A DNA stretch of 32,000 nt from an uncultured Smithella sp. (GCA_964469905.1 CAYXZW010000004.1:44173-76172), one strand, 5' to 3'. Numbered from the stretch's first letter, positions 5,521-27,113 are shown. Program-made: numbers and translations. The notes: generated from the sequence alone by a model not told the origin.

Positions 5521-5973
5521 TCAAGAAAACCTATAGAAAACAAATGCCAGCAATTCCATTTCCCTAATTTCAAAGAGAATCTTAAACGGGAGATGCATAA
5601 TCATCTGTTTTTCGGTTTCAGACACTGACAGAAGAGTTAAATCGACCAATGTCTTCAATTGTTTTATTTCTTCGGCAAGCTTCTTGGTCCCTTTGAAAAC
5701 ACTCTGTCGATAATAATCAGCCTTCTCCCAGATCTGTTTATTGCCCGCATTGCCGATGTTGATCGTGTGCTCCAGAAGAGCAATATTGCCAATCTTCCAT
5801 ATCCAGTCGTCATAGTTCTCATTTGTCGACTTCAGCCAGACATCCTTCAATTCCTGATAATTCACGGCGTTCTGTGAAAATACGTGTTCACGCTGTATCT
5901 GGATGCCGTCATCCTCATCTATGTCATAGTCGAAAATCCTACTCAATTCTTCATCTGAGTAGTCATAAACCAT
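5521..5973 (-). CDS. DUF1524 (His-Me finger/HNH-like) C-terminal half of a GmrSD-family type IV restriction enzyme; likely part of an interrupted gene
   Basis: REHVFSQ ... IGNIALLEHTINIGNAGNK matches the DUF1524 EH..(P/S)Q ... GN..LL....N....N pattern. The ORF is in the same reading frame as 6022..7662 and is separated from it by a single TGA. Confidence 0.7.
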   Translation of the reverse strand: MVYDYSDEELSRIFDYDIDEDDGIQIQREHVFSQNAVNYQELKDVWLKSTNENYDDWIWKIGNIALLEHTINIGNAGNKQIWEKADYYRQSVFKGTKKLAEEIKQLKTLVDLTLLSVSETEKQMIMHLPFKILFEIREMELLAFVFYRFS

Positions 5974-6021
5974 GCGTTCATATTCATAGAGGACATACTT
6001 GAAGTTTCCATACCCCAGATC

Positions 6022-7662
6022 TCAGACAAGATATTCCTTTTTATATCCAAAGGAAAAATTGCGGACATGGTCGACAATTTTATCCACATAGTTAGATTCC
6101 CAGACGAAGCTACCGACCGGACGCTTTCCGATAGTCCAGATTGCGAGCTCGTTTTCTTCAATAAGATTGAAGATCGTTACCGGCTTCGAGGCAAACTGAC
6201 TGAATTCGTCAATTTGTCCAATGCACATTCCATATCGGTCTTTCAAAAATCCGAATAGGTCCCTATATGGTCTAATCAGCTCAATGTCCCGTGAAACCCC
6301 AGATTCAGCTGTCAGTGCAGCAAGCTTGGCATTTGCTCCCTTGATCCGGTCAATCTCCTCAAACAGATTGATGGCGGCCATCTCCCCCGTCTTGGGAATA
6401 CTCTGTCCCGGTTCAAGCATGGACATGGTTTGTGGAGGTGTATTTTTATATATCTCAACCAGCAGCGCCTTGCTAAATACCGACAGCCCCAGGATGCTGA
6501 AAAGCTGTTTGAATGGATACCAGGTCTTGGCAATATAAGGGTCTTTGTGACTATAAGCCAATTCACAGGGGACTGCCGTGTCAGCAACATAGCGCAGGAA
6601 AGATATGATGCTACGGATCTTGTCCGCCAGATATGGGATAATGACTTTGATGTTGTCATTCTGCAGCACCAACGTTTCGCGGAACACCTTATTAATGGAC
6701 TCGTAAATCCTGTCTTCGCCGGATTCGTACCAAACCTCTACCTTGCGTTTATTGTCTCCTTCATCATTGAGCAGGTCGTTCAGGTACTTCCGGTAGAAGC
6801 CTTCCCGGAGCAGCATGAAGTTTAGAATCCGTATGACGTCGGCCTCGGCGCTCTCCGGCTTAGGATAGATTTTGAGCGAACAGAGAAGCTCTATGGTTTC
6901 AAAAAGTCCGCCGAACATGTTATCAATATCACGGTCCAGGTCAATATCCTTTTCAACCTTCTGTGCGTAGAACATCAGGGTGCTCTTGAGCTTTTCCGTA
7001 TTGGTCAATCGCTTGCCCCGATCGGTTTGAGAAACGAACAGGGTTCCCGCCAGTTCTAGGTTATCCTCGACCAATATCTGTACGACTTGAAGATTCTGCT
7101 GAACAAACCGCTTTAAGTCGTCCCGGCGCGGAAAATCCGCCAGCCGGCGGCGGAAATAGTCGTAAGTTACCCTGATGCGACGATTGCTTTTCGTCTTCGG
7201 CTCTATCGCTGTGCCACTAACAAGATGCAGGAAATACTCGTGGTCCACCTTGCCGGGGATCAGTTTGGGAATAGCGGCATTGAAGATATGCGACACGATG
7301 GCGGCATCCTGAAAGGCGAGGAGAAAGAGAAAAAAGGTTATGGTGCGCTGCTGGCCATCGATGACAAAATAGAAGTCGTTGCCTGTGTCCAACTGCGCCA
7401 GCAGCTCGTGGCGCAGGATGTCCTGATTTACATATTCATCCAGCTGGGCATAACTGACCTTGGCAAGATAGATGCTACCCAACAAGTAGGGCAGGTATTC
7501 CGCTTCTTCAATGGCAAATACCAAGTCGTTCCAGAAGTCCTCGATGTGCTTCTCCTCCCAGGAGAATGGACGCTGGTACTTGGGCATCAACAACTGCCTT
7601 TTGCCGCCGAACATTTCCGTATAGTAGTTACAGATGGAAACCTTGATCTTGTCAGTGGTCAA
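6022..7662 (-). CDS. DUF262 (ParB-like nuclease/NTPase) N-terminal part of a GmrSD-family type IV restriction enzyme
   Basis: MPKYQRPFSWEEKHIEDFWNDL and VIDGQQRTITFFLFL (DGQQR) are DUF262 hallmarks. The TTG start at 7660-7662 overlaps the TGA (7659-7661) of the upstream TIR gene. The ORF ends at TGA 6022-6024, and the same frame stays open beyond it into 5521..5973. Confidence 0.8.
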   Translation of the reverse strand: MTTDKIKVSICNYYTEMFGGKRQLLMPKYQRPFSWEEKHIEDFWNDLVFAIEEAEYLPYLLGSIYLAKVSYAQLDEYVNQDILRHELLAQLDTGNDFYFVIDGQQRTITFFLFLLAFQDAAIVSHIFNAAIPKLIPGKVDHEYFLHLVSGTAIEPKTKSNRRIRVTYDYFRRRLADFPRRDDLKRFVQQNLQVVQILVEDNLELAGTLFVSQTDRGKRLTNTEKLKSTLMFYAQKVEKDIDLDRDIDNMFGGLFETIELLCSLKIYPKPESAEADVIRILNFMLLREGFYRKYLNDLLNDEGDNKRKVEVWYESGEDRIYESINKVFRETLVLQNDNIKVIIPYLADKIRSIISFLRYVADTAVPCELAYSHKDPYIAKTWYPFKQLFSILGLSVFSKALLVEIYKNTPPQTMSMLEPGQSIPKTGEMAAINLFEEIDRIKGANAKLAALTAESGVSRDIELIRPYRDLFGFLKDRYGMCIGQIDEFSQFASKPVTIFNLIEENELAIWTIGKRPVGSFVWESNYVDKIVDHVRNFSFGYKKEYLV

Positions 7663-10625
7663 GCCGGCATAACCTCACTGCTTTCTTCTTTTGTTTTTTT
7701 CTCAGAATTATCTGCAAGTAATTCATCTATCAATGGAGTTACTTGCTCTTTCATGATTTTGAACTTTTCCTTAAAATACGACTGCATCTCATATTGGTTT
7801 TTTTCATCTATTACCTTCTTTTCCGTTCCAGCAGTATTCCTAAACTGTGCATCAGCATACTGCCACCACGGCCACCCCCTTTCTGATCTTCCAGATAAAA
7901 ATATTTTTTTTATTTTCTCACTGAAATCGGTGTTTTGAGCATTTATTGTGCTGTCGCATGATTGGATACCATAGAAGAGATTATCAAAATCATTAGTTCC
8001 AGCCTGAAGTGTAAGACAATATGTGCTTTTATCCTGGTCTGGTTTTTTCCAGGCTTCTTTATAGAAAGATATCCCCGCATACTTTTCCATGGTTTTTGCA
8101 TTGGTATACATCTTCCATCCATCTTTCTCAGGGAAAAGCGTTTTTAGTGTATTGGTCAGCCCATCTATCAAGTTTTGAAGTTCTCCAATGAAATGAACCT
8201 GGTAGTTGTGATCATTGCACAGTTTCTTAATCAGGGGCTCCATTTTTAAAATATTTTTGGCTAGCCCTTCCATTGTCTCATCAAAAAATATACACCTTTC
8301 ACCTGCAATAAGAGGCCAGGAACCATCGTTAATCCAATCAAAGTTACTTCCCCCTGTTTTTGTAAAGTTAGCCAAATTTGCACTCCAGATTCCGTAAAGA
8401 TTCCCCGTGTCATGACTTTTTCCGAATGCGAATTCGCAGGCGCCGCATAACATCCCCAGCTGATGCTCGAATTTCGGGTCAATTTGCTCGTTTTGCTTCA
8501 GGGAGACAACGAGGCCATCAAAGCATGGTTCCGTCGGAATAATCTGCAGCATGACGGGGGGGAGGTCATCGTCGTTTGCGCCACTTTTGCGCCATGTCGA
8601 ATGCCAGATTGAAATGGGAGCCATTTTTTCCAGTGAAATGGCTTTATTTTCAACTTTCCATACTCCTGTTTCACTCACAAGAAACTGCTCCAATACTTTG
8701 CATGCATGCGTCACAAGGTTTTTAACCGCTTCCAGATGGTTTCTGAGCATAATAAATTCAGGCAGGATCTTGTCAATTTCTTCGGTTACGAAAGATTCGT
8801 AACGAGCAAGCCATTCTGCTATACTTTTTCCTTCAAAATCATCAGATACTGTTATATTCTTAGGTATTGTGTATAGGCCACGATTTTTAATAAACGCCTT
8901 GATAATCTCCGTTTCAAAATCAGGCGGCTCTAAGTTCTTGAACATAACTGCCATATTTTTTTTCGTGCATGTAAATGCAGCAACTGCATCAAATTCTTCA
9001 ACCTTAAAAGTTAAATAAGTTTCTAACGTAATCCACTCACAATCAAGATTCCTGGACATAAACGAAAATGTCATCCCTGCTTCACTTGCCTTTTGATTGC
9101 ATTTTTCAGTAATCATTCTGAGATAATTATAGATATAAAGACCGTTATTCCAGGTTCTTCTTTCTTCCTCCATTACAAGGGGATTTGCTAATTGCATTCT
9201 TGGGATGTCATTACAGGCATCACCAATTATCACTTCCAAATCCTTCAATTTTTTAAATTTCCCCACACAATATTCAATGAAACCGTCAAGGTCATCTTGC
9301 CAGTCAAATGAAATATCGGCAATTCCACTATTGCGCCATTTTCCATCAAGTAGTTGCCACCACGGCCAATATGGTTCCGGCTTTTCCGTCTGTTCCATTA
9401 TTTTTATTGCCCTATCTGTAATGCGTGACTCCCAATCACCTAATGTCATCCAACTTTCATATTTGAGGATGCCGATATACAAGCCGTTCAAAAAATGTCC
9501 TCCGCTTTCCAGGGTGAAAGACAACAAGCCGCGCCCCCGGTAGTTATCTGACTGCGGCTGCCAATCCTTTTTGAAGACGTTAAGTTTGCCATACTGCCTA
9601 AAACCGCTTAATCGTTCCCCCTCCGGAGCGCCTACCATCCAGTCTTCTGTTTCGGGAAAGATTTCTTTCAGCTTTTCTTCCAGCCGACTGATGGTTTTCT
9701 CCACCTTTCCTGCATAGTCAATCCAGTCGAGCAGTCCGGGGAAAATTTTATCAGAAAAAGCTTCAATATTATCTTTGAATAAATCAAAACATTTTTCCAA
9801 GGAATGGCCAGCAAGTTTGTTTGTTAATGGTTCTTCCTTCAATAAAGCGACAAAATTCCAGCGCCTTGCCCCGGGAATCCTCTTGACATCTTTAAATGTT
9901 TCGCTTTTTTCTTTTTGAAAAAATGTTACAAAGGGATATTTGAGGGGATCTCCATCTGATGCTGAATCTGCATATATATCTATTGTTTTTTTCTGTGTGC
10001 TAAATTTGAATATCAGATCAACACCTGTGGCGCCTATTCTAATGGGAAAAAAGAGGACAACATCTTGAGTCGCTCCCTTCTGAATAGAAAACATGGCATT
10101 GATGGTATCCAGACGCAGCCTATATTTGCCGTTTAAATTGTTTGCCAATAGTCGAGCAGCTCCTGATATGCCGCCGTCCATATCTCCTTTATCAACGGAT
10201 TCCTTGTTCAGCATGACAAGAATGGCATCGACAGCCGCTTGAAAACGCTCGCTGCCTTCCCCTTCTAAAGCATCGACCCATTGCTTATCAGAAAGATGGT
10301 ATTTGAACGCCTCTTTTAACGGTGAATCTTCAATGCGTATCGGAAGCAACATCTTTTTATCGCTATTGGCAATATCCACTTCTTTAGCGCACTCCGCCGA
10401 TCCCATAGATGCCTCAGAAACAAGCAGGGCAAGAATGTCCGTTTCGCTAATTCCTGCCATGATGGCGTTAGCCCACTGTTGGCCTGCTCCGATATCTCGC
10501 GGGGCAATCCAACAGGAAATACCTGCGCCCTCAAGCAGATTGCATAAATACTGGGCATCATTCTTATTCTTTTCTGTTCTTGTTGTATAACTAATAAATA
10601 CTTCCTTTTTTTCTGTTCTAGCCAT
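7659..10625 (-). CDS. TIR-domain protein with a large internally repeated C-terminal region (TIR-A-B-A'-B'-B'')
   Basis: Residues ~8-125: VFISYTTRTEKN...CWIAPRDIGAGQQW...LLVSEASMGSAECAKEVDIA...LLPIRIED is a bacterial TIR_2-type pattern. The C-terminus holds three related ~150-aa modules (approx nt 9216-9683, 8211-8708, 7716-8168). Shared landmarks are LFPE(T/K)(E/D)(D/G)W, L(Y/F)(I/Y)GI and (Y/G)WPWWQ. GGAGG lies 4 nt before the ATG at 10625. Confidence 0.85.
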   Translation of the reverse strand: MARTEKKEVFISYTTRTEKNKNDAQYLCNLLEGAGISCWIAPRDIGAGQQWANAIMAGISETDILALLVSEASMGSAECAKEVDIANSDKKMLLPIRIEDSPLKEAFKYHLSDKQWVDALEGEGSERFQAAVDAILVMLNKESVDKGDMDGGISGAARLLANNLNGKYRLRLDTINAMFSIQKGATQDVVLFFPIRIGATGVDLIFKFSTQKKTIDIYADSASDGDPLKYPFVTFFQKEKSETFKDVKRIPGARRWNFVALLKEEPLTNKLAGHSLEKCFDLFKDNIEAFSDKIFPGLLDWIDYAGKVEKTISRLEEKLKEIFPETEDWMVGAPEGERLSGFRQYGKLNVFKKDWQPQSDNYRGRGLLSFTLESGGHFLNGLYIGILKYESWMTLGDWESRITDRAIKIMEQTEKPEPYWPWWQLLDGKWRNSGIADISFDWQDDLDGFIEYCVGKFKKLKDLEVIIGDACNDIPRMQLANPLVMEEERRTWNNGLYIYNYLRMITEKCNQKASEAGMTFSFMSRNLDCEWITLETYLTFKVEEFDAVAAFTCTKKNMAVMFKNLEPPDFETEIIKAFIKNRGLYTIPKNITVSDDFEGKSIAEWLARYESFVTEEIDKILPEFIMLRNHLEAVKNLVTHACKVLEQFLVSETGVWKVENKAISLEKMAPISIWHSTWRKSGANDDDLPPVMLQIIPTEPCFDGLVVSLKQNEQIDPKFEHQLGMLCGACEFAFGKSHDTGNLYGIWSANLANFTKTGGSNFDWINDGSWPLIAGERCIFFDETMEGLAKNILKMEPLIKKLCNDHNYQVHFIGELQNLIDGLTNTLKTLFPEKDGWKMYTNAKTMEKYAGISFYKEAWKKPDQDKSTYCLTLQAGTNDFDNLFYGIQSCDSTINAQNTDFSEKIKKIFLSGRSERGWPWWQYADAQFRNTAGTEKKVIDEKNQYEMQSYFKEKFKIMKEQVTPLIDELLADNSEKKTKEESSEVMPA

Positions 10626-10643
10626 AGTGCCTCCGTCAACAGA

Positions 10644-12680
10644 TTAGTTCTGCTTTTCACTATCGTTCATGAATTGTCTTTGCTTCTGCCATCCGGGACT
10701 GGCCAGAAGGTTCCTGATATTTTCAAGCATGTCCTTGTCCTTTTGCTTCTCGCTTTCAGAGAGTTGTGCATAAGGGATGATCATTGGATGGATTTTTTTC
10801 TCGTTGTTTCTTACCAGACCATAACGCCACCCATCCATAAGTCTTTCAGCCATCCACCGCCTGTGTTCCATCTCTGACAGCATTTCAAAAAAAACATGGT
10901 TGTGAGCAATATTAGCTAGAGGAGTCAAATCTTGACCATCACAACCGATAGCGCGAAGCTTGACCGAAAGATGATCAGCCGGCCAGCGATTCGCGTCCTT
11001 CATGACTTCGTTGAGTTCCTCCCATACTACCAACGAAATATTATCTCTCTTTTTCTGGGGATAATGCATCGGGTAGGCTGCATCAAGCAAGGATGCATTC
11101 AGCCGGAATAACTGTGTCTGTTCCGTAATGGTGAGCTCATGGAAAAGTTTGCTCCTTATTGAAGACGTCCGAGTTGCCAGCTTTTCAAACCTCGGTGCCA
11201 AAACCGTGCCGCGTTTCTTAAAGATTCGATCATAGAGACTTGGCATCTTCAGGATTCGATTGAGAGAGGCTATGGGATCTTGTTCCTTGAAGTCCGTCAA
11301 TTCGGGGATGTCCTTTAACACGGCATGAATAAAATCAAGAGGTTTGCTTTCTTTGAAGTCGTTTTCATTGAAAGGAATCTGAGTATTGACGTATGCTGAG
11401 TGGATTGTTCGCGCCAACTCATCTGTTACCTCGTCCATTAGGACCTGATAACCACAAGCAGCATCATAAATATTGAAACCCTGTATATTCAGGTCTAATG
11501 TATATTGCGATTCGTTTCCCTCCATGAGTTCAGACAAAGAAGATCTCATGCAGACTACAATCGGTATGTCGTCTGAGGGAAGAAGAGATCGAATCCGCAT
11601 AGCAAGAGAAACACCAGTCGAATCATCATCTAACGCAATATATACAGCAGCCGGTTTTGAACAGGTAATCTCTTCTATCGACAGAAGGCATTCGGGATCA
11701 TGATCGATAAAACGGATATTAACACCAGGGACAATAAAAGATGGAGGTTTCGCCCCATCACCATAAACCGCAAGAAACTTCTCAGAGTTTGTTTTGATAT
11801 TTCGATCAACGACGTTAATTTCCAGTCGCTGCCACTCGGCGTAATGCCCGATTCGTGCAGCCTGTTTAATGATGTGCTCTCCCATCCTGCTGAATCCAAT
11901 TATGACAAAAGAGATGGTTTTATCTGACAGTCCTTGTTTTCTGGCATACAGGTCAGGAGGGTATTTTTCCAAGATAACACGGGCAGATGTTTCGTAGATG
12001 TTGAAGATACTGGCATCGAATTCGTTATAGGTTCTTGCAAAGAGATCATGGTGGGCGAAAATTGATCGCAAACTTGAACTGGTAATATGGGTATAACAGC
12101 GCAAATTAACCGTCGAATCATTTCTGTAAGCGGTTTCTGCCAGCAGCTTTCCCTCACTTGCTATTTTAATATTGGCATTGTCACTCCCTGTGACGGCAAA
12201 AAGATATTTTGCTTTTGCAGTATTTGCTTCATCCAGCATGACCTGGTCCGAAGCGTCACCTATCAAAACTAATACACCACGTTCCCTGCAGCCCGGAATG
12301 TCGGGATGATCTTTCTTGGACTCTATAACAACCACACGGTATCCTTTTACTAGAAAACTGCTCATCAGGCGCATTCCCTTGTCTCCGAGACCGCTGATGA
12401 CCACATGGCCAGAAGTCTGCTGAAGGCGGATCAGTTCGTATTTTTCCCGAATTTGCTTCCAGAATGCCTGAATAGAACCTAGTGCTGTTCCCCCCGCCCC
12501 TAAAAACTTGGCAATAGTAAACAAGAGCTTTTGCTGCTCTGGTTTACCGACAATAATTAATATAACGCCAGTAATAACCAGAATTACAGCCGTCACCAAC
12601 AGACCGATGACCAACCACCAGGAGTATTTACGATTCCAGCGCCCAAAGGCAGTAAATGAAGAGACACTATGTTTTTTCAT
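10644..12680 (-). CDS. membrane-anchored protein with two TrkA_N/RCK-type Rossmann domains and a C-terminal RyR domain
   Basis: N-terminal TM helix WWLVIGLLVTAVILVITGVILIIVG. VVISGLGDKGMRLMSSFLVKGYRVVVIE carries GxGxxG plus an acidic beta2 end. A second copy is FVIIGFSRMGEHIIKQAARIG...INVVDRN. The C-terminus MEHRRWMAERLMDGWRYGLVRNNEKKIHPMIIPYAQLSESEKQKDKDMLENI matches the RyR-domain consensus (E..W......GW.YG......K.HP.L.PY..L.E.EK..D). The ATG at 12680 is preceded by AGGGG and lies 4 nt after the upstream TAA; the track start at 12704 is a TTG. Confidence 0.8.
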   Translation of the reverse strand: MKKHSVSSFTAFGRWNRKYSWWLVIGLLVTAVILVITGVILIIVGKPEQQKLLFTIAKFLGAGGTALGSIQAFWKQIREKYELIRLQQTSGHVVISGLGDKGMRLMSSFLVKGYRVVVIESKKDHPDIPGCRERGVLVLIGDASDQVMLDEANTAKAKYLFAVTGSDNANIKIASEGKLLAETAYRNDSTVNLRCYTHITSSSLRSIFAHHDLFARTYNEFDASIFNIYETSARVILEKYPPDLYARKQGLSDKTISFVIIGFSRMGEHIIKQAARIGHYAEWQRLEINVVDRNIKTNSEKFLAVYGDGAKPPSFIVPGVNIRFIDHDPECLLSIEEITCSKPAAVYIALDDDSTGVSLAMRIRSLLPSDDIPIVVCMRSSLSELMEGNESQYTLDLNIQGFNIYDAACGYQVLMDEVTDELARTIHSAYVNTQIPFNENDFKESKPLDFIHAVLKDIPELTDFKEQDPIASLNRILKMPSLYDRIFKKRGTVLAPRFEKLATRTSSIRSKLFHELTITEQTQLFRLNASLLDAAYPMHYPQKKRDNISLVVWEELNEVMKDANRWPADHLSVKLRAIGCDGQDLTPLANIAHNHVFFEMLSEMEHRRWMAERLMDGWRYGLVRNNEKKIHPMIIPYAQLSESEKQKDKDMLENIRNLLASPGWQKQRQFMNDSEKQN

Positions 12681-12684
12681 AAAG

Positions 12685-14493
12685 TTACCCCTGTGGAACC
12701 TCAATAGGACGTTCGCGGTGCATCAATAGCCAGTCCCCATTTTCGGCGATGGCTTCCTTACCGAGCTTGAGTAATACATCACGGCTCTGTAATTCATTGT
12801 CAGGATTTGACTCCAGGAGCTTAAGCGCCTTATTAAAGAGCGCCCCCATCCGTATGTATTGTTTCGCTTGTGCAGAAAAGAGCATTTTATCATTGTAATA
12901 ATTTATGGCACCGGCAATGACGAATGAGGCAGGTGTGGCAACTTGCATCCAATTGTCTAACAAATCGCCACCAAGCTTAAACTTGTGAATAATAAGCATT
13001 GCGGGTGTTAAAACAAACATAGCAATGCTGAAGAATACTTTAGAAATTAAGTTTAATCTTTCCATTTTTTTCTTCTGTTTAATGGCAGCATTTCTATAGT
13101 AGTGTGATTGTCCTTGCACCCAGTATGTTTTAACTGCTTGAAGAGCTTCTATATGGATGGGCTTGTTACAATCGTTGACAAAACCAGTTAAAAGATTCCA
13201 ATTCCTGATGGCTTGACGAATCCAATCAAGCTCACTCTGTTGCTTGCCCAGATAGTCAGAAGCGACAGATTCGCGCAATCCAGCCAGTCTCCAAAAAAAT
13301 TGAACGCGTAATCCTTCTGCAAGCGCCCGGTAATCGAGGAATTTTTCTTGATTTTTGCGTTGCTTTGACCAGTAGTAAACACCATAGGCGCACGCCATTG
13401 GTGCAAGATATCCTAAAATGACAATCAGTGCCGAAGAAATGCTCAGGTACATTTCAAAAAAGAAGACTATAAGCGGTACAAAACATGCGATGGCATATAG
13501 GGCGGCATAGGTATCCTTTTGAAAATGGATTGCCATAGCATCCGCAATTGCAAATCGCTCAAGCAATTCCTTCTGTGGTCCGGAAAGATCCTCCTTTGTG
13601 AACTTACTATCTGTATGCTGCCCGGGAGATGACGTTGGAATCGACATAAGCCATTCCACCGACTGCTTTGATTGTGTCGCAAGTTCATTGGCAAGCGTGA
13701 TCGCATCGCAGTTAAATGCATCAATACATGTAAAGACTCGCTGCTGCTCTTCTTCTCGAGATCCCGTGTTGTCTTCATTGAGTGGATATAGAATGTTTAC
13801 TGCAAATTGATTAAATGACGGGAATGTATCGTGCGACAGGAATTGCTGAAAAAAGCCTGTATCAGGCCTTATGGATCCATTTTCCGATTTGCGACGAGTT
13901 ACAATATGATAGACAGGACCGGTCTGGATGGGATTAAATATGATATCCTCGTTGTCAGCCCTTGTCGTATCGCCCGATAACTGAAGTTCTACGATGTCTG
14001 CTGTACCACCGAGTTTCTCATTGAGAATACCATCCCACAAGGCAATCAGAATCTGGCAATGCTCAACCATGAACTGGCCTGCTGCGAAATACTGTCGATC
14101 ACGGGCAGGTCCGTAGTCCTTGATTGAATTAATGGTGTTTCCTTGAACGATGGGAATTACAAATGATGAAAATGCTTTGGAAAGAAGCTTTGTAAAATTT
14201 TCTTTTGATGAACTGGATTCAAAGTCTCTTTCGTATTCATCTTGGGGGAGCGGCAACGGGACAATAAGTTGCATACTATTCTCGATAGCTACTTCCGCAG
14301 CAATACGGTCGGCACCTTCTGCAAGAGAGGATATTAATGAGAGGGGCGTAAATGGATACTTAGCTTTAAGATCAGCAAAAATAGATTGTACCCGCCTCTT
14401 TAACTCCTGATAATCTTCTTCGTAAATGTCACGATGCCCTGTGACACCTATCATAATGGGTACAGACGCCATTGATCTGCCTTTAATATTCAT
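12685..14493 (-). CDS. SLOG-domain (YpsA/DprA/LOG-like) protein fused to a 4-TM region ending in a SLATT-like 2TM module
   Basis: The N-terminus IGVTGHRD ... SSLAEGADRIAAEVA ... LIVPLPLPQDEYERDF ... ILIALWDG...LGGTADIVE follows the SLOG/YpsA strand-loop pattern. TM pair 1 is YAIACFVPLIVFFFEMYLSISSALIVILGYLAPMACAYGVYYW. The distal part is YYRNAAIKQKKKMERLNLISKVFFSIAMFVLTPAMLII...VATPASFVIAGAINYY...AQAKQYIRMGALFNKA, i.e. helix-TM-TM-helix as in SLATT/DUF4231. The alternative start MASV at 14472 is possible. Confidence 0.7.
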   Translation of the reverse strand: MNIKGRSMASVPIMIGVTGHRDIYEEDYQELKRRVQSIFADLKAKYPFTPLSLISSLAEGADRIAAEVAIENSMQLIVPLPLPQDEYERDFESSSSKENFTKLLSKAFSSFVIPIVQGNTINSIKDYGPARDRQYFAAGQFMVEHCQILIALWDGILNEKLGGTADIVELQLSGDTTRADNEDIIFNPIQTGPVYHIVTRRKSENGSIRPDTGFFQQFLSHDTFPSFNQFAVNILYPLNEDNTGSREEEQQRVFTCIDAFNCDAITLANELATQSKQSVEWLMSIPTSSPGQHTDSKFTKEDLSGPQKELLERFAIADAMAIHFQKDTYAALYAIACFVPLIVFFFEMYLSISSALIVILGYLAPMACAYGVYYWSKQRKNQEKFLDYRALAEGLRVQFFWRLAGLRESVASDYLGKQQSELDWIRQAIRNWNLLTGFVNDCNKPIHIEALQAVKTYWVQGQSHYYRNAAIKQKKKMERLNLISKVFFSIAMFVLTPAMLIIHKFKLGGDLLDNWMQVATPASFVIAGAINYYNDKMLFSAQAKQYIRMGALFNKALKLLESNPDNELQSRDVLLKLGKEAIAENGDWLLMHRERPIEVPQG

Positions 14494-14539
14494 CTAACGT
14501 TTCTGTTATGATAGATATGTTCACATTCTTGAGTCTTTA

Positions 14540-15688
14540 TTATAGGAGTTTTTTGCTCGCGACACTCCAAATCAAATTTATAAATGTCACAAGTTGTTCG
14601 GCAACATATTTAGCGAACCCAAGATCAGCCAATTCCGCAAATGACACTCTTTTTATGGTTTCAAAGCCAAGGTTTCCTATTTCTTCAGAGTTCAATTCAT
14701 AATAATGATCTTTAACATGAAAACCACCTTTTGAATCAAGCGCCTCTGGGATCAGGTTAAATTCATCACAAGTCTGTCTGAACAGTGGATCTCTTTTTTC
14801 GCTTTCTGAATAGATTCCCCATACAACATTTATCCTATCCAGGCGTCTCTTGGTCAGAGAGACTGAAATGAAATATTTTTCATTGATCTGCCAATAGACC
14901 CAATTCTCTTCTGCAATATCATCATCCTGCGCAATTTCATTTGGGATGAATGGCAATCGAGCAGGATCCATTGTTTCTCTAACTAATTTTAAGAATTTAA
15001 TGCCCACATTGGGCCATGCATTATCTCCAACGACAACAGGGTCACTTTGAACTATAGTCCCTTTAAAACTAATGTTTGCTTCATCTATCTCACTCTTTAC
15101 CCTCGCCTCTAAGTCCTTTGCTCGGTCAATAGAAATGCAAAGATCCCTTGTTAGGTTATTTATTGTATCTCGTTCAATATCCGTTATTTGACCATCTTCA
15201 TACGCCATACGTAGAACTTTTAATAGTGCTTCCTCATTAGATCTGTTTTCAGATTCAGTTACTTTTGTCTCCTTTTTTTCTCGTTGGCTAAATAAATCAA
15301 CTTGTTCTTTAATCCTCTCAGCGACAGAATTAAGATGATCGACTTGACTGTCTAAAATATCAATAACGTTTGGCGTAGCTAAATGATATTTAAAAGCTCG
15401 TTCAGGTGCAATGTCTTCAATCCGAACCGGAATTAATAGGCATTTATTTTGTGCAGAGAGCGTTAACTCTTTTAGGACATTTTCGCTATTCTGTGAATTT
15501 GAAGAGAATACAAGAATTACAATGGGCACATTATCGATAGCGTCGACAATTTTTTCCGCCCAATTCCCAAGGCCGATGTTATCTTTATCTCGCCAGCAGC
15601 GGACTCCATTTTTTTCAAGCAAATCCCTTAAAGTTACAACAAATTTCTCATCCTGCCTCGAGTAGCTTAAAAATACATCATAGCTCAT
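14540..15688 (-). CDS. TIR-domain protein (ThsB-like architecture: TIR plus coiled coil plus a distinct C-terminal domain)
   Basis: YDVFLSYSRQDEKFVVTLRDLLEKNGVRCWRDKDNIGLGNW...VILVFSSNSQNSENVLKELTLSA...LIPVRIEDIAPERAFKYHL is a clear TIR pattern. It is paralogous to the TIR of 7659..10625, which carries LLPIRIEDSPLKEAFKYHL. AGGGGA precedes the ATG at 15688. Confidence 0.85.
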   Translation of the reverse strand: MSYDVFLSYSRQDEKFVVTLRDLLEKNGVRCWRDKDNIGLGNWAEKIVDAIDNVPIVILVFSSNSQNSENVLKELTLSAQNKCLLIPVRIEDIAPERAFKYHLATPNVIDILDSQVDHLNSVAERIKEQVDLFSQREKKETKVTESENRSNEEALLKVLRMAYEDGQITDIERDTINNLTRDLCISIDRAKDLEARVKSEIDEANISFKGTIVQSDPVVVGDNAWPNVGIKFLKLVRETMDPARLPFIPNEIAQDDDIAEENWVYWQINEKYFISVSLTKRRLDRINVVWGIYSESEKRDPLFRQTCDEFNLIPEALDSKGGFHVKDHYYELNSEEIGNLGFETIKRVSFAELADLGFAKYVAEQLVTFINLIWSVASKKLL

Positions 15689-15734
15689 TTGTTATTCCCC
15701 TTTCTCATTTTGATCACATATACTTAAACAAAAG

Positions 15735-16268
15735 TTATACTCTAATTCCGCGACTTGCAAGGGTTCTTTCCGGATTAAATATTCCCTCTTTATTCCTGAC
15801 AAGAGCAAAAACAATTGGGGATAGGACAAGGAGAAATGCAAAGCCTGTGCGCCGAGAAGAAGCCCTGTTTGAACCTGTTTTACCAGAAGGTGTCACAAAG
15901 TTAAGTAGATTAATGATAAATAATACGGAAAGAGAAATCTTTGTGACTAACGCAAATAAAATACCTAGAGGATTTTGATTATCTTGAATGGTTCTGATAA
16001 CAATCCATAAAAAAAGAACAGATTCAACAATGGCAATAAATATGAAACCTATTTTATGGTTATCCTTTGATGCAAATGAAAAAACATACATGAGAATTAT
16101 AGGAACCAGACCCAGTAAAAAGACTAGCCCCAAATCATTATAATCCCGAAAGACGGTGATCTTCTGTTTGAAGCCCATAACAACTCCGATTACAACAAAG
16201 ACAACCCACGCAATCAATGTGTAGATGTTAAATATCCAGTCTGTCCAGACATACACATTAGCTTCCAT
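15735..16268 (-). CDS. polytopic membrane protein of unknown function, first gene of the TIR operon
   Basis: 177 aa with about 5 hydrophobic helices. The RBS AAGGAAAGGA precedes the ATG at 16268. Only 46 nt separate its stop from the TIR gene start. A 309-nt non-coding leader lies upstream. Confidence 0.6.
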   Translation of the reverse strand: MEANVYVWTDWIFNIYTLIAWVVFVVIGVVMGFKQKITVFRDYNDLGLVFLLGLVPIILMYVFSFASKDNHKIGFIFIAIVESVLFLWIVIRTIQDNQNPLGILFALVTKISLSVLFIINLLNFVTPSGKTGSNRASSRRTGFAFLLVLSPIVFALVRNKEGIFNPERTLASRGIRV

Positions 16269-23365: not shown

Positions 23366-23552
23366 CAAAATACCTCCAAAGTTTTACTCATTACAATAAT
23401 GTTTCTTTAATTGATATTTTAGCAAAAATAACTACGTTCAGCACATCTTTCGTGTTAAGCGTTCTAGCGTTTTTTGCTTCTGCTTACTCATTTTTTTCAG
23501 AATAGTGATTTAGTTAGATCTTGTACTGTTTAATCAATGTTAAATGTAAATC

Positions 23553-25430: not shown

Positions 25431-25511
25431 CCGTAATTTAATAAGTGAGACTTACAACTAAAAAAGATATGGACGCAAAAATTGTATTTAAGATAATGGA
25501 CGTAACCTTAA

Positions 25512-26663: not shown

Positions 26664-26686
26664 AATTATTTTCACATCCGTATTTA

Positions 26687-26745
26687 TAAGAAAATATGCA
26701 TTATGGAAACAATATTTTATTTTTAAGATTATGTTAGCATCTAAT
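26687..26745. repeat. direct repeat copy A flanking the McrBC cassette
   Basis: taagaaaatat-g-cattatggaaacaatattttatttttaagattatgttagcatctaata. Compare copy B at 30872-30945. The shared blocks taagaaaatat, cattatggaaaca and atttttaaga are identical. By eye, about 40 of ~48 positions match in the core. Confidence 0.7.
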
Positions 26746-26765
26746 AACAACTGTCCAGTAATGCG

Positions 26766-27113
26766 TCATTTTCCAGCCTTTTGATTATTTCGGGGAAGTG
26801 TTCCATTTCTGAGACGGTTTTCATAAGACCCCTCCTCCTTGCATCGATTGATAATGGTTGTTTCTTCAATTGGTTCTCCCATCGTCCAGTAAAGTAATCC
26901 ATCTTCTGCAAAGTATGTGAGAATGTGTTGGTAAAAGCGTCCTTCAAAACCGTGTTGATGGATGTGGCGAACTAATTCGTCGAAAAGCATGCTGTCGACC
27001 CGGTCTCGAACGATATATTCGTGGGGCCATTCCAGCATCGTCTTGGCAAACGTCCATTGTGCGGAGGCAATGAACTCCCGTAAAGCATTGGGCAAGGCAA
27101 CTGAAACACTCAT
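26766..27113 (-). CDS. small hypothetical protein translationally coupled to mcrC
   Basis: 115 aa. Its ATG (27111-27113) overlaps the mcrC stop (27110-27112) in an ATGA arrangement. It contains WTFAKTMLEWPHEYIVRD, a motif I recall from conserved hypothetical proteins but cannot assign to a family. Confidence 0.6.
   Translation of the reverse strand: MSVSVALPNALREFIASAQWTFAKTMLEWPHEYIVRDRVDSMLFDELVRHIHQHGFEGRFYQHILTYFAEDGLLYWTMGEPIEETTIINRCKEEGSYENRLRNGTLPRNNQKAGK

What the first reader, a model, noticed from the sequence alone, without database searches (positions are those of the whole stretch)
7659..16268. Operon combining two TIR proteins, a SLOG-SLATT membrane protein and a TM-TrkA_N-RyR protein: candidate Thoeris-like nucleotide-signalling defence system of undescribed composition
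Five co-directional genes are packed with gaps of 46, 46, 4 and 18 nt, and each has its own Shine-Dalgarno sequence. The order is a 177-aa membrane protein, a 382-aa TIR protein, a 602-aa SLOG plus 4TM/SLATT protein, a 678-aa TM plus 2x TrkA_N plus RyR protein, and a 988-aa TIR protein. A GmrSD-like gene is start/stop-overlapped at the 3' end. Established knowledge: in Thoeris, TIR proteins (ThsB, often several per locus with different sensor domains) make cADPR-isomer signals from NAD+, and these are read by the SLOG domain of ThsA. SLATT 2TM modules were predicted by comparative genomics (Burroughs et al. 2015) to be membrane-perturbing effectors attached to SMODS/SLOG sensors. In this locus the SLOG is fused directly to TM/SLATT modules instead of SIR2 or Macro. 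A second membrane protein carries NAD(H)-type Rossmann domains plus an RyR domain, whose bacterial function is unknown. Inference: the TIR proteins sense infection and produce an NAD-derived signal; the SLOG-SLATT protein, and possibly the TrkA_N-RyR protein, read the nucleotide state and collapse membrane integrity (abortive infection). I know of no described defence system with this gene set.
Basis: partly seen in the sequence, partly recalled or inferred. Interest (0 to 1): 0.9.

Follow-up and report, generated by a model that had tools for sequence, protein, structure and literature searches.

The report
TIR, SLOG-SLATT and RyR defence operon
A five-gene bacterial operon pairs two TIR enzymes with two membrane proteins that carry different nucleotide-signal-binding domains (SLOG and the ryanodine-receptor 'RyR' domain); the same partnership recurs in distant bacteria and archaea, sometimes with a true potassium channel, and looks like an undescribed relative of Thoeris anti-phage immunity.

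Summary
Five co-directional minus-strand genes (7659-16268; gaps 46, 46, 4, 18 nt) encode a small membrane protein, a 382-aa TIR protein, a 602-aa SLOG + two-SLATT protein, a 678-aa membrane/tandem-RCK/RyR protein and a 988-aa TIR protein. A GmrSD gene follows, broken by one in-frame TGA.

The SLOG-SLATT call rests on family-level HMM hits and a confident model (pLDDT 92) matching DprA/LOG/ThsA-SLOG folds.

In 80 species-level loci with a homologue of the 602-aa protein, TIR genes cluster within 500 bp (25 ORFs, against 0 at 5-10 kb). Thirty loci have a TIR gene within 2.5 kb, ten a TrkA_N/RyR gene, seven both.

TrkA_N-RyR proteins also occur as two-gene cassettes with TIR or TIR-like DUF4062. 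In three Acidobacteriota loci the partner is a K+ channel (TVGYGD/TIGYGD) + RCK + RyR.

A 2026 preprint shows that phage RyR domains bind or cleave 2'/3'cADPR, so RyR is a plausible second signal receptor or signal hydrolase.

The closest catalogued item, the unverified 'SLOG and 4TM' Thoeris candidate (Yirmiya 2025), is a different protein family. I found no description of host TIR + RyR operons.

Verdict: a new variant of Thoeris-like signalling; function untested.

The parts
15735..16268 (-). 177-aa small membrane protein (4-5 predicted TM helices). It is the first gene of the cluster; its membership of the system is uncertain.
   Evidence: ORF and hydropathy. No Pfam, NCBIfam or PADLOC hit. 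An 82%-identical orthologue sits in the same position in L001-L003, but none is found in L004 or any other locus.
14540..15688 (-). 382-aa TIR protein: N-terminal TIR domain plus a roughly 250-aa C-terminal domain of unknown family (candidate sensor).
   Evidence: TIR_2 at 4.1e-20, residues 5-112. The orthologue in L001 is only 45% identical, while the neighbouring effector genes are 84-88% identical.
15353..15676 (-). TIR domain of the 382-aa protein. The candidate catalytic Glu74 codon lies at 15467-15469.
   Evidence: Pfam. E74 is invariant in 48 of 48 aligned TIRs and aligns with the conserved Glu of B. cereus MSX-D12 ThsB.
12685..14493 (-). 602-aa SLOG + 4TM protein (alternative start at Met8, position 14472): candidate signal-gated membrane effector.
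   Evidence: The family has at least 4192 word-index hits and 1444 50%-identity representatives at E<=1e-30. AlphaFold2 pLDDT 92.2, pTM 0.91.
13639..14466 (-). SLOG domain (about residues 10-285) of the YAcAr/DprA-like kind. Conserved motifs are GxTGHRD, LAEGADR and WDG...GGT.
   Evidence: Invariant columns. YAcAr hits in 7 of 18 homologues, best 1.6e-6. Foldseek: DprA 3uqz E 1.6e-3 prob 1.0, ShosA 8zva, LOG proteins, BcThsA SLOG with 3'cADPR 7uxs prob 0.95.
13285..13581 (-). First 2TM module (about residues 305-403), SLATT_3/DUF4231-like, followed by the conserved amphipathic helix LDYRALAEGLRVQFFW.
   Evidence: Hydropathy. Model helices H305-351, H356-378 and H381-403. SLATT_3 and DUF4231 hits in homologues at the equivalent position.
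12715..13152 (-). Second 2TM module (about residues 448-593), SLATT_1-like, with the conserved C-terminal motif GKEAxxENGDWxLxHRERP.
   Evidence: SLATT_1 hits in homologues at the equivalent position.
10644..12680 (-). 678-aa membrane-anchored tandem-RCK + RyR protein: candidate second signal receptor/effector, or signal hydrolase.
   Evidence: TrkA_N 2.2e-17 and RyR 1.9e-17. AlphaFold2 pLDDT 87.9, pTM 0.83. Foldseek: GsuK channel 4gx5 E 9e-9, TrkA ring 4j9v, KtrA, BK, MthK, RyR3 R12 6uhb.
12420..12659 (-). N-terminal helical hairpin (residues 8-87) with one strongly hydrophobic TM segment. It has no pore loop or selectivity filter.
   Evidence: Hydropathy and model. The alignment shows that the pore-loop segment present in relatives is deleted in this subfamily. 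Relatives in L051, L060 and L065 have Ion_trans_2 and a TVGYGD/TIGYGD filter at this position.
11436..12404 (-). Two RCK/TrkA_N-type Rossmann domains (about residues 93-415).
   Evidence: Pfam TrkA_N covers residues 93-181 in 678-aa numbering. The second domain is seen in the model and its Foldseek matches.
10686..10895 (-). RyR (R12-type) domain, residues 596-665. H606, W609, H631 and D648 have the spacing reported for the ligand-binding/catalytic residues of phage RyDEP.
   Evidence: Pfam. Animal RyR repeats match at E 6e-29 and B. thetaiotaomicron 3nrt at 3e-9. Residue table. RyDEP residues from PMC13232231.
7659..10625 (-). 988-aa TIR protein: N-terminal TIR domain plus a roughly 850-aa C-terminal region of unknown family (candidate sensor).
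   Evidence: TIR_2 at 1.5e-19. Weak PADLOC PDC-S26 hit at residues 806-962. The C-terminal region is found only in L001/L002 (two paralogues, 44-49% identical) and L004 (43%).
10236..10601 (-). TIR domain of the 988-aa protein. The candidate catalytic Glu82 codon lies at 10380-10382.
5521..7662 (-). GmrSD-family type IV restriction gene, start overlapping the upstream stop (TTGA), interrupted by an in-frame TGA at 6022-6024. It is a neighbour and probably a separate defence gene.
   Evidence: GmrSD_N 6.5e-29. GmrSD_C 3e-7 on the 150-aa remainder. Same frame. Intact 713-aa orthologues in L001 and L004.

Best explanation
The locus is a Thoeris-like TIR signalling system with two signal makers and two signal readers.

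Shown by computation:
- Both TIR proteins keep the conserved catalytic-type Glu.
- The 602-aa protein is a DprA/YAcAr-type SLOG domain fused to two SLATT-like 2TM modules.
- The 678-aa protein is a membrane-anchored tandem-RCK protein ending in a RyR R12-type domain.
- Each reader type is found next to TIR genes in many unrelated genomes. The RyR protein and the SLOG-SLATT protein are often adjacent or overlapping, with a single TIR gene beside them.

Inferred mechanism:
1. On phage infection, the variable C-terminal domains of the TIR proteins sense a phage cue.
2. The TIR domains convert NAD+ into an ADP-ribose-derived signal, probably a cADPR isomer.
3. The SLOG domain binds this signal and drives the SLATT helices to breach or depolarise the membrane, giving abortive infection or growth arrest.
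4. The RyR domain of the 678-aa protein binds the same or a related signal. The RCK domains add NAD(H)/adenine-nucleotide sensing.
5. In relatives that keep a K+ channel pore, this would gate ion flux. In the window's pore-less version, I think it most likely acts as a second membrane effector or as a co-receptor that modulates the SLOG-SLATT protein.

The GmrSD gene is an independent, here inactivated, restriction gene travelling with the island.
For: Domains.

Catalytic Glu: invariant in 48 of 48 TIRs.

Co-localisation around homologues of the 602-aa protein in 80 species-level loci from at least 10 phyla:
- 25 TIR ORFs lie within 500 bp (32.8 per 100 kb), against 0 in 529 kb at 5-10 kb distance.
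- A TIR gene lies within 2.5 kb in 30 of 80 loci, and in 27 of the 55 loci with full flanks.
- A TrkA_N/RyR gene lies within 2.5 kb in 10 of 80 loci.
- All three are present in 7 loci: L004, L013, L042, L051, L060, L063 and L065.

TIR_2 is the commonest Pfam family among 101 same-strand neighbours.

One TIR gene serves both readers in L004 and in L051/L060/L065.

TrkA_N-RyR proteins occur with TIR or TIR-like genes and no SLOG-SLATT:
- L085 and L086-L088.
- L122, an archaeon.
- L089, with DUF4062 on a plasmid beside a type I restriction-modification system.
- L121.

Further three-component or RyR + SLOG-SLATT loci: L161 and L163.

K+ channel (Ion_trans_2 5e-17, TVGYGD/TIGYGD) + TrkA_N + RyR proteins overlap the SLOG-SLATT gene in L051, L060 and L065.

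Phage RyR domains bind 2'/3'cADPR with nanomolar affinity or hydrolyse them (PMC13232231). The window protein has H606, W609, H631 and D648 at the same spacing.

Sensor-like divergence: between the window and L001 the TIR proteins are 45-51% identical, against 82-88% for the other genes.

Defence-island context.

Both membrane-protein families are nearly absent from viral contigs.
Against: - There is no experiment. Signal production, binding and phage protection are all inferred.
- About half of the homologue loci show no TIR gene within 2.5 kb. The SLOG-SLATT family may therefore also work with other partners or alone.
- The window protein's own Pfam SLOG hit is insignificant, and all family-level SLOG/SLATT hits lie below Pfam's gathering scores.
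- The 678-aa protein has lost the pore loop that its relatives keep, so an effector role for this particular protein is the weakest step.
- An architecturally analogous 'SLOG and 4TM' + TIR pair gave no protection when cloned in E. coli (Yirmiya et al. 2025, Table S2). That effector is a different family.
- Two TrkA_N-RyR contexts initially showed no TIR by Pfam. One (L161) turned out to have a TIR-WD40 protein; the other (L123) has a STAND NTPase instead.
- The mapping onto RyDEP residues is by spacing only. The RyDEP sequence itself was not available.
Confidence: 0.6

Rival explanations
1. The system is the same, but the 678-aa RyR protein is a regulator and not an effector. It would be a membrane-tethered, RyDEP-like glycosidase or sponge that destroys or buffers the TIR signal. 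This would set an activation threshold or reset the system, as ring nucleases do for type III CRISPR cyclic oligoadenylates. The SLOG-SLATT protein would be the only killer.
For: - The window protein and its close relatives keep all four RyDEP-type positions, including the putative catalytic dyad H606/D648. The channel-fused RyR domains have N/N at two of them.
- Other TIR + SLOG-SLATT operons carry stand-alone RyR proteins of 95-144 aa (Pfam E about 1e-36) that cannot be membrane effectors: L013, L014, L021 and L161.
- The window subfamily has lost the pore loop.
- RyDEP enzymology: PMC13232231.
Against: - Two-gene TIR + TrkA_N-RyR cassettes with no other candidate effector (L085, L086-L088, L122) argue that this protein can be the output module.
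- In the RyDEP study most homologues with conserved residues were binders, not enzymes, so residue conservation does not show catalysis.
- A mere hydrolase has no obvious need for membrane anchoring and tandem RCK domains.
Confidence: 0.3
2. The cluster is two independent two-gene Thoeris-like systems, plus GmrSD, that merely sit side by side in a defence island. One would be TIR-382 with SLOG-SLATT and the other TrkA_N-RyR with TIR-988. Each would have its own signal and no cross-talk.
For: Each pair type exists alone elsewhere: TIR + SLOG-SLATT in about 23 loci without Trk/RyR, and TIR + TrkA_N-RyR without SLOG-SLATT in L085, L086 and L122. The gene order TIR-reader-reader-TIR is what two head-to-tail modules would give. 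Defence genes cluster in islands generally.
Against: - Only 4 nt separate the two reader genes.
- RyR-protein/SLOG-SLATT adjacency recurs in L042, L161 and L163.
- Trk/RyR ORFs lie within 500 bp of the SLOG-SLATT gene in 8 cases, against 0 beyond 2.5 kb.
Confidence: 0.2
3. The TIR proteins are NAD+-depleting effectors and not signal generators. The RCK (NAD(H)-binding) and SLOG domains would sense the resulting fall in NAD+ or rise in ADPR and add a membrane response. A further variant is that the whole module serves a non-defence physiological role such as K+/NAD homeostasis.
For: - Many bacterial TIRs act as NADases in other systems, as stated in Yirmiya et al..
- GsuK RCK domains bind NAD+ and ADP; the best Foldseek matches include '4gx2 GsuK channel bound to NAD' and '1lss KTN ... 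in complex with NAD+'.
- Two TrkH genes lie downstream of the archaeal TIR + TrkA_N-RyR pair in L122.
Against: - Dedicated ligand-binding domains (SLOG, RyR) that are known readers of TIR-made cADPR isomers sit in the partner proteins.
- The distribution is patchy and cross-phylum, the setting is a defence island, and the TIR C-termini evolve fast. None of this fits housekeeping.
- K+ uptake genes are absent from the other loci examined.
Confidence: 0.12

Closest known systems
Type III Thoeris (several TIR proteins + the SLOG effector ThsD; van den Berg et al. 2024, as summarised in Yirmiya et al. 2025 and in PMC13276650)
   Same: It has more than one TIR gene in the operon. Its effector carries a SLOG domain of the SMF/DprA kind, not the STALD kind of ThsA. 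The best structural matches of the window SLOG domain are likewise DprA proteins. The signalling mode is uncharacterised in both.
   Different: The window SLOG is fused to four TM helices (two SLATT-like modules), and the operon adds a RyR/RCK membrane protein. I could not obtain the ThsD sequence. A plasmid locus with a 65%-identical homologue of the type III TIR-4 domain has a 193-aa soluble SLOG-like protein that gives no hit to the window family profile, but its identity as ThsD is unconfirmed.
'SLOG and 4TM' putative Thoeris type (Yirmiya et al. 2025, bioRxiv 10.64898/2025.12.03.692087, Tables S1/S2)
   Same: It is a two-gene TIR + effector arrangement in which the effector is a SLOG-like domain followed by four TM helices, predicted to be a TIR-signal-gated membrane effector.
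   Different: It is a different protein family. I recovered the effector on one of its own listed contigs (Ga0163163_10000077, locus L093). It is 399 aa with a LOG-like 'LLIGGGNST' motif. It gets no hit from the window-family HMM and an hhalign probability of 1.3%. It has few TIR entries in Table S1 (five seen in the parts read), and two cloned examples gave no defence in E. coli. No RyR or TrkA partner is mentioned.
Type VII Thoeris (TIR + the SLATT effector ThsH, signalling by canonical cADPR; Yirmiya et al. 2025)
   Same: It uses SLATT-type 2TM membrane effectors downstream of TIR signalling, with a predicted membrane-breaching oligomer.
   Different: ThsH is described as a SLATT protein whose ligand pockets form between SLATT protomers, with no SLOG domain mentioned. 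The window protein has a separate N-terminal SLOG sensor and two SLATT modules. No ThsH sequence was available for direct comparison.
Type I Thoeris ThsA (SIR2-SLOG)
   Same: A SLOG domain acts as receiver of a TIR-made cADPR isomer. The BcThsA SLOG-3'cADPR structure 7uxs is among the fold matches.
   Different: The window protein has no SIR2 NADase domain. Its SLOG is of the YAcAr/DprA type and not the STALD type. Its output is membrane helices, not an enzyme.
Phage RyDEP family (RyR-domain defence-evasion proteins; Lopez Rivera et al. 2026, PMC13232231)
   Same: Same Pfam family (PF02026). Residues occur at the spacing reported for the adenine-stacking Trp, the phosphate-binding His and the His/Asp dyad. 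Two hundred and twenty-one phage records carry homologues of the window RyR domain.
   Different: The window domain is host-encoded, sits inside a TIR operon, and is fused to TM helices and tandem RCK domains (or, in relatives, to a K+ channel or an AAA ATPase). The expected role is signal reception or host-side regulation, not anti-defence.
RCK-gated K+ channels (GsuK, MthK) and the TrkA gating ring
   Same: A tandem RCK fold follows an N-terminal membrane hairpin. GsuK is the best structural match (E 9e-9). Relatives in L051, L060 and L065 have a canonical Ion_trans_2 pore with TVGYGD/TIGYGD.
   Different: The window protein lacks the pore helix and selectivity filter. It carries a C-terminal RyR domain that no characterised RCK channel has.
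Type X Thoeris (TIR + 'ion channel' effector ThsK; Yirmiya et al. 2025)
   Same: [quoted passage not shown]
   Different: The type X TIRs belong to the type II-like TIR cluster. The TIRs here are of the 'FISY...CWIAPRDI' TIR_2 kind. Neither the paper nor its supplements mention RyR or TrkA. In 28 IMG/VR loci with type X/II-like TIRs the neighbours are small TM proteins with no RyR or Trk similarity. The ThsK sequence itself could not be retrieved, so identity is not excluded.

Membership tests
Thoeris-type TIR signalling systems (generic) | A TIR-domain protein with the conserved catalytic Glu | tested here: met
   TIR_2 at 4e-20 and 1.5e-19. E74 and E82 fall in a column invariant in 48 of 48 TIRs and aligned with the ThsB Glu. 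The catalytic role of that Glu is established knowledge, recalled and not tested.
Thoeris-type TIR signalling systems (generic) | An adjacent effector gene carrying a domain able to bind an ADPR-derived signal | tested here: met
   SLOG domain in the 602-aa protein. RyR domain in the 678-aa protein. Binding capacity is inferred from ThsA-SLOG and RyDEP precedents.
Thoeris-type TIR signalling systems (generic) | TIR-effector adjacency conserved across unrelated genomes and in defence islands | tested here: met
   30 of 80 loci have a TIR gene within 2.5 kb. There are 25 TIR ORFs within 500 bp and 0 at 5-10 kb. The window has GmrSD, McrBC and PDC-S11.
Thoeris-type TIR signalling systems (generic) | Infection-dependent production of an ADPR-derived signal that activates the effector, and phage protection | not testable with these tools
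   Needs cloning, phage challenge and LC-MS.
Type I Thoeris | The effector is SIR2 fused to a STALD-type SLOG | tested here: not met
   No SIR2 hit in any gene of the locus. The SLOG is YAcAr/DprA-like.
Type III Thoeris | Multiple TIR genes with an SMF/DprA-type SLOG effector | tested here: inconclusive
   Two TIR genes and a DprA-like SLOG fold fit the published description. ThsD sequence and architecture were not available. A possible ThsD-like 193-aa protein in L132 shows no similarity to the window family.
Type VII Thoeris | The effector is a SLATT-domain membrane protein | tested here: inconclusive
   SLATT_1, SLATT_3 and DUF4231 hits occur in homologues only, and all are below Pfam's cut-offs. 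The window protein has an extra SLOG sensor. No ThsH sequence was available to compare.
'SLOG and 4TM' putative Thoeris type (Yirmiya 2025) | The effector is homologous to the listed 4TM-SLOG proteins | tested here: not met
   The effector on the listed contig (L093, 3829-5028) gets no hmmsearch hit with the family profile and an hhalign probability of 1.3%. Only the architecture is alike.
RyR domain family PF02026 (includes phage RyDEP) | RyR/R12 fold and sequence signature with the ligand-contacting His, Trp, His and Asp | tested here: met
   Pfam 1.9e-17. Animal RyR repeats at 6e-29. H606, W609, H631 and D648 are present; H606, W609 and D648 are at least 90% conserved in 53 homologues. The mapping to RyDEP numbering is by spacing only.
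RyR domain family PF02026 (includes phage RyDEP) | Binding or hydrolysis of 2'/3'cADPR | not testable with these tools
   Needs EMSA, TLC or LC-MS with purified domain.
RCK-gated K+ channels | A pore domain with a K+ selectivity filter | tested here: not met
   No Ion_trans_2 hit, and the pore-loop segment is deleted in the alignment. The feature is met in relatives L051, L060 and L065.
RCK-gated K+ channels | Cytoplasmic tandem RCK/TrkA_N domains | tested here: met
   TrkA_N 2.2e-17. Foldseek matches GsuK, TrkA, KtrA, BK and MthK with probability 1.0.
GmrSD type IV restriction enzymes | GmrSD_N (DUF262) and GmrSD_C (DUF1524) in one polypeptide | tested here: not met
   Both domains are present but separated by an in-frame TGA. 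Intact 713-aa orthologues exist in L001 and L004.

The most novel reading that the evidence does not exclude
Host-encoded RyR-domain proteins are receptors for TIR-made cADPR-type signals. These include genuine K+ channel-RCK-RyR proteins and the pore-less 678-aa protein of this window. They would work together with a SLOG-SLATT effector in a two-receiver immune circuit. That would make these operons a prokaryotic counterpart, and possibly the evolutionary source, of the long-debated cADPR-to-ryanodine-receptor axis of animal cells. It would also explain why phages carry RyR-domain sponges and hydrolases: they would be captured copies of the host's own receptor domain.
Probability: 0.4. Interest if true: 0.92.

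Novelty: new variant of a known kind. Interest (0 to 1): 0.78.

Why it matters
Thoeris-type immunity is being mapped quickly: 11 named types and about 29 predicted effector classes by December 2025. Even so, neither the large YAcAr-SLOG + double-SLATT family nor any host RyR-domain protein appears in that catalogue or in PADLOC 2.0. The SLOG-SLATT family has 1444 50%-identity clusters at E<=1e-30, and all are annotated 'hypothetical'.

If the reading is right, it adds three things:
1. A widespread new effector family.
2. The first case of a TIR operon with two different signal-reading domains, which would allow threshold setting or a two-stage response.
3. A direct genomic link between TIR enzymes and RyR-domain ion channels.

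The third point makes an old question in animal physiology testable in a simple bacterial protein: does a cADPR-type nucleotide act through the RyR R12 domain? It also gives a host-side rationale for the phage RyDEP family described in 2026.

Tried and rejected
1. Nucleotide search of the operon against plasmids found no match. Exact look-up of the 595-aa protein found nothing on record. The source organism stays unknown; identical contigs come only from Logan runs SRR13723392/3.

2. Direct Pfam, NCBIfam and PADLOC annotation of the 602-aa protein found nothing significant. A PDB sequence search with the family profile gave no hit.

3. I tested whether the locus equals the published '4TM SLOG' type.
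   - TIR-domain BLAST was uninformative.
   - A homologue search with the Nitrospira TIR gave only short contigs, with no effector visible.
   - The metagenome scan recovered the listed contigs and showed that the effector is a different family. Rejected.

4. I tried to identify the type X 'ion channel' and type VII ThsH effectors through plasmid and IMG/VR loci carrying similar TIRs. This found only type II (Macro) systems, small TM proteins, or TIR-only loci. Unresolved.

5. I tried to obtain type III ThsD. A plasmid locus with a homologous TIR has a soluble SLOG-like protein unrelated by HMM. Unconfirmed.

6. Burroughs et al. 2015 (the definition of SLOG and SLATT) is not in the paper library. 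It is cited from memory and through its later citation in PMC7159879.

7. The RyDEP (phage DyoEdafos gp78) sequence was not found among the listed phage hits or in the PDB copy, so the residue mapping is by spacing.

8. The promoter and terminator scan gave no more sites than shuffles, so operon boundaries rest on spacing only.

9. I considered TIR-SLOG-SLATT fusion proteins (Rosetta-stone evidence). The 840-aa relatives carry a second SLOG and not a TIR. Rejected.

10. Phage origin of the two membrane proteins: they are essentially absent from IMG/VR. Rejected.

Full report
**1. What is in the sequence**

On the minus strand of the window there are five tightly packed ORFs:
- 15735-16268 (177 aa)
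- 14540-15688 (382 aa)
- 12685-14493 (602 aa)
- 10644-12680 (678 aa from its ATG)
- 7659-10625 (988 aa)

The gaps are 46, 46, 4 and 18 nt. The next ORF (6022-7662) begins at a TTG that overlaps the stop of the 988-aa gene by 4 nt.

Four of the five starts have a purine-rich Shine-Dalgarno-like sequence. The first ATG of the 602-aa gene has none, and public gene calls use Met8, so its start is ambiguous.

The cluster has 36-48% G+C against 39% for the window. It sits in a defence island. GmrSD lies directly downstream, an McrBC pair lies at 27110-30480, and a PADLOC 'PDC-S11' candidate lies at 20202-21176.

A simple promoter/terminator scan found nothing beyond chance. The operon call therefore rests on spacing and on conservation of gene order.

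**2. Domain assignments**

The TIR domains are unambiguous: TIR_2 at 4e-20 and 1.5e-19. I aligned them with 45 TIR domains found next to homologues of the two membrane proteins and with the B. cereus MSX-D12 ThsB TIR domain. That this Glu is the NADase/cyclase catalytic residue is established knowledge, which I recall and did not test.

The 678-aa protein has TrkA_N (2e-17) and RyR (2e-17). Its AlphaFold2 model (pLDDT 87.9, pTM 0.83) shows an N-terminal helical hairpin, two RCK-type Rossmann domains and a C-terminal helical RyR domain. Foldseek's best matches are the GsuK K+ channel (E 9e-9), the TrkA gating ring, KtrA, BK and MthK, plus the human RyR3 R12 domain.

The 602-aa protein is the weak point of a sequence-only reading, because on its own it gives only YAcAr at E 0.055. 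The evidence for it comes from elsewhere:
- It belongs to a large, well-conserved family. There are at least 4192 hits in the word-indexed search, and 1444 50%-identity representatives at E<=1e-30 (4653 at 1e-10) in the exhaustive search.
- Across 18 diverse members, Pfam finds YAcAr (a SLOG family) in 7, SLATT_1 in 6, SLATT_3 in 5 and DUF4231 in 5.
- In the 840-aa relatives, SLATT_3 maps to the first TM pair and SLATT_1 to the second, and a second SLOG is added at the N-terminus.
- All these hits are below Pfam's gathering scores, which explains why public records call the family 'hypothetical'.
- With a 63-sequence alignment the AlphaFold2 model is very confident (pLDDT 92.2, pTM 0.91).
- Its N-terminal alpha/beta domain matches DprA (probability 1.0), ShosA, LOG proteins, the MoCo carrier protein, TRPM channels and the BcThsA SLOG-3'cADPR structure. 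All of these are SLOG-superfamily folds.

**3. Conservation of the neighbourhood**

The closest relative (84% identity for the 602-aa protein; metagenome contigs L001-L003) has the same five genes in the same order. It also has an extra 213-aa gene, a third TIR protein and an intact 713-aa GmrSD.

Between the two loci the 177-aa, SLOG-SLATT, RyR and GmrSD proteins are 82-88% identical, but the TIR proteins are only 45-51% identical. This is the pattern expected of fast-evolving sensors.

A Desulfuromonadales genome (L004; 45% identity) has SLOG-SLATT, TrkA_N-RyR, one 983-aa TIR protein and, 2 kb further on, a 79%-identical GmrSD.

I then took 80 loci from one-genome-per-species GTDB contigs that encode a homologue of the 602-aa protein. 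They span Ignavibacteriota, Acidobacteriota, Proteobacteria, Chloroflexota, Firmicutes, Verrucomicrobiota and others. The census gave:
- TIR ORFs are strongly concentrated next to the gene. Twenty-five lie within 500 bp (32.8 per 100 kb), 5 at 0.5-2.5 kb, 5 at 2.5-5 kb, and none in 529 kb at 5-10 kb.
- Thirty of 80 loci have a TIR gene within 2.5 kb (27 of the 55 loci with complete flanks).
- Ten have a TrkA_N/RyR gene within 2.5 kb.
- Seven have both: L004, L013, L042, L051, L060, L063 and L065.

In a Pfam census of 101 close same-strand neighbours, TIR_2 was the commonest family (14). RyR (5), TrkA_N (4) and Ion_trans (4) were also present.

**4. The RyR protein is a TIR partner in its own right**

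Homologues of the 678-aa protein nearly all share the TrkA_N + RyR architecture. Their contexts include:
- Two-gene cassettes of a TIR protein followed by TrkA_N-RyR, with no SLOG-SLATT gene: L085 and L086-L088.
- An archaeal 1515-aa TIR protein followed by TrkA_N-RyR: L122.
- An Arcobacter plasmid with split TrkA_N and RyR genes followed by a DUF4062 protein, next to a type I restriction system. DUF4062 is a TIR-like NADase family (bioRxiv 10.64898/2026.05.01.722283).
- A locus with TIR, AAA-RyR, TrkA_N-RyR and DUF4062-STAND-WD40 genes: L121.
- L161, which has TIR-WD40, SLOG/SLATT-like genes, TrkA_N-RyR and a small RyR protein.
- L163, in which TrkA_N-RyR is followed 2 nt later by a member of the 602-aa family.
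- L123-L126, the only context with no detectable TIR, which has a STAND NTPase instead.

In the seven three-component loci the RyR gene lies next to, or within about 1.5 kb of, the SLOG-SLATT gene. It overlaps or abuts it in L004, L013, L042, L051, L060 and L065. L004 and L051/L060/L065 contain a single TIR gene. This argues for one integrated system and against two systems that merely sit side by side.

**5. A channel lineage**

In the Acidobacteriota loci L051, L060 and L065 (two of them Vicinamibacterales) the gene overlapping the SLOG-SLATT gene encodes Ion_trans_2 (5e-17) + TrkA_N + RyR. It has a canonical K+ selectivity filter, TTVGYGD or TTIGYGD. These are true 2TM K+ channels with an RCK domain and a C-terminal RyR domain.

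A larger group of relatives keeps a degenerate pore-loop-like segment ('Y.T.QLFTLESG'). The window's subfamily has lost that segment altogether.

The RyR domain also appears in these operons as a stand-alone 95-144-aa protein (L013, L014, L021, L161) and fused to AAA ATPases (L012, L063, L121, L123). RyR thus behaves as a portable module attached to different outputs.

**6. What RyR probably does**

A May 2026 preprint (PMC13232231) reports that the mycobacteriophage RyR-domain protein RyDEP is a glycosidase. It opens 2'cADPR and 3'cADPR to linear ADPR. The catalytic dyad is H75/D117, W78 stacks on adenine, and H100 binds the phosphates. Other phage homologues are nanomolar sponges for the same molecules.

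The window protein has H606-x2-W609-x21-H631-x16-D648, exactly that spacing. H606, W609 and D648 are at least 90% conserved among 53 homologues. The stand-alone host RyR proteins also have H/W/H/D.

The channel-fused RyR domains have N/N at the last two positions, as does repeat 2 of human RyR2. Because I could not obtain the RyDEP sequence, this mapping is by spacing and by the shared Pfam consensus only.

It suggests that channel-fused RyR domains are pure binders. The window protein and the small RyR proteins could be either binders or hydrolases.

**7. Most likely mechanism**

Shown: the domain content, the conserved Glu, the conserved three-way gene association, and the defence-island setting.

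Inferred:
1. Phage sensing by the variable C-terminal parts of the TIR proteins.
2. Production of an ADPR-derived signal from NAD+.
3. Binding of that signal by the SLOG domain, with membrane disruption by the SLATT helices. [quoted passage not shown]
4. Binding by the RyR domain of the 678-aa protein.

For the 678-aa protein I favour a second receptor/effector or co-receptor role. TIR + TrkA_N-RyR exists as a complete two-gene cassette, and relatives are real ion channels. The rival reading is a host-side, RyDEP-like signal hydrolase or buffer that sets a threshold. It is a serious alternative (about 0.3), given the retained H/D dyad, the loss of the pore, and the stand-alone RyR genes in sister operons.

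Other rivals are less likely, for the reasons given in their entries. They are two independent adjacent systems, TIRs acting as NAD+-depleting effectors sensed by the RCK domains, and a housekeeping role.

**8. Comparison with what is known**

Yirmiya et al. (bioRxiv, December 2025) list 29 putative Thoeris effector classes and name types I-XI.
- *'SLOG and 4TM'.* This is the nearest class in architecture. It is unverified, and two examples gave no defence in E. coli. I recovered one of its listed contigs (Ga0163163_10000077). Its effector is a 399-aa LOG-like + 4TM protein with no detectable relationship to the window family: no hmmsearch hit, and hhalign probability 1.3%.
- *Type III.* It has multiple TIRs and a DprA-type SLOG effector. 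It is the closest validated type in logic, but I could not obtain ThsD for a direct test.
- *Type VII.* It uses a SLATT effector without a SLOG domain.
- *Type X.* It uses an unspecified 'ion channel' with a different TIR family. Identity with the channel-RCK-RyR proteins cannot be excluded, but nothing supports it.
- *Mentions of RyR or TrkA.* Neither term occurs in that paper or its supplements, in the DUF4062 paper, or in the domain-centric screen PMC13069673.
- *The RyDEP paper.* Its text search found no occurrence of 'host-encoded', and its operon mentions concern the phage NARP1 operon and the Thoeris systems used in assays.
- *PADLOC 2.0.* It has no model for either membrane protein.

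I therefore file the locus as working like Thoeris, but not as a member of any named type.

**9. Verdict**

The system is a new variant of a known kind, TIR-based signalling immunity. It has an uncatalogued and very widespread SLOG-double-SLATT effector family. More strikingly, it has a host RyR-domain partner that in some genomes is a bona fide K+ channel.

The main uncertainties are the complete lack of experimental evidence, the role of the pore-less 678-aa protein, the role of the 177-aa protein, and my inability to compare directly with the ThsD, ThsH and ThsK sequences.

Noticed in passing
window 5521-7662 (-), stop codon at 6022-6024: The GmrSD gene is a single reading frame broken by one in-frame TGA, which splits it into a 546-aa GmrSD_N part and a 150-aa GmrSD_C part. 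Orthologues in L001 and L004 are intact (713 aa, 79-83% identical). An independent Logan contig (L084) has the same 546-aa truncated ORF.
   Followed up: yes
window 27110-30480 (-): An McrC (396 aa) + McrB-like AAA_5 (729 aa) pair lies in a block of 47-50% G+C, against 39% for the window. It is probably a separately acquired type IV restriction module.
   Followed up: partly
window 20202-21176 (-) and 22304-26750 (-): The 324-aa ORF matches the PADLOC candidate defence family PDC-S11 (1e-30). The three large ORFs at 22304-26750 (354, 625 and 412 aa) lie in a 28-35% G+C stretch and have no Pfam or PADLOC hit.
   Followed up: partly
window 2772-4238 (-); L004 9406-9972: A DUF2779 (Cas4/RecB-like) gene lies near the operon in the window. 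A DUF2779 ORF lies immediately upstream of the SLOG-SLATT gene in the Desulfuromonadales locus. This may be a further travelling companion of the island.
   Followed up: no
L051 8205-9980, L060 8202-9926, L065 8196-9920: In three Acidobacteriota loci (two of them Vicinamibacterales), genuine 2TM K+ channels (TVGYGD/TIGYGD filter) with RCK and C-terminal RyR domains overlap a SLOG-SLATT gene. A convergent TIR gene follows.
   Followed up: yes
L013 8560-8847, L014 9191-9625, L021 1015-1314, L161 6886-7344: Stand-alone host RyR-domain proteins of 95-152 aa (Pfam E about 1e-36 for the three scanned here) sit inside or beside TIR + SLOG-SLATT operons. They have the same size class as phage RyDEP-type proteins.
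   Followed up: partly
L116 6414-6953, L118 7844-8335: Loci of the published '4TM SLOG' Thoeris candidate also encode a small soluble SLOG protein (163-179 aa). It is homologous to the N-terminal domain of the window's 602-aa protein (hmmsearch 2e-17), although the 4TM-SLOG effector itself is not.
   Followed up: partly
L089 (Arcobacter plasmid CP146529.1, locus 7962-11685); L121 8028-13812: TrkA_N/RyR genes lie next to DUF4062 proteins. DUF4062 is a family recently reported as TIR-like NADases. RyR partnership may therefore extend beyond canonical TIR domains.
   Followed up: partly
proteins P0022-P0120 of about 840 aa, e.g. P0042 and P0068: A large subfamily of the SLOG-SLATT protein carries a roughly 260-aa N-terminal extension that is a second YAcAr-like SLOG domain (tandem SLOG + two SLATT).
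   Followed up: partly
L122 7163-10278: In the Thermoplasmatota contig, two TrkH K+ transporter genes lie just downstream of the TIR + TrkA_N-RyR pair. This could be coincidence or a link to K+ transport.
   Followed up: no
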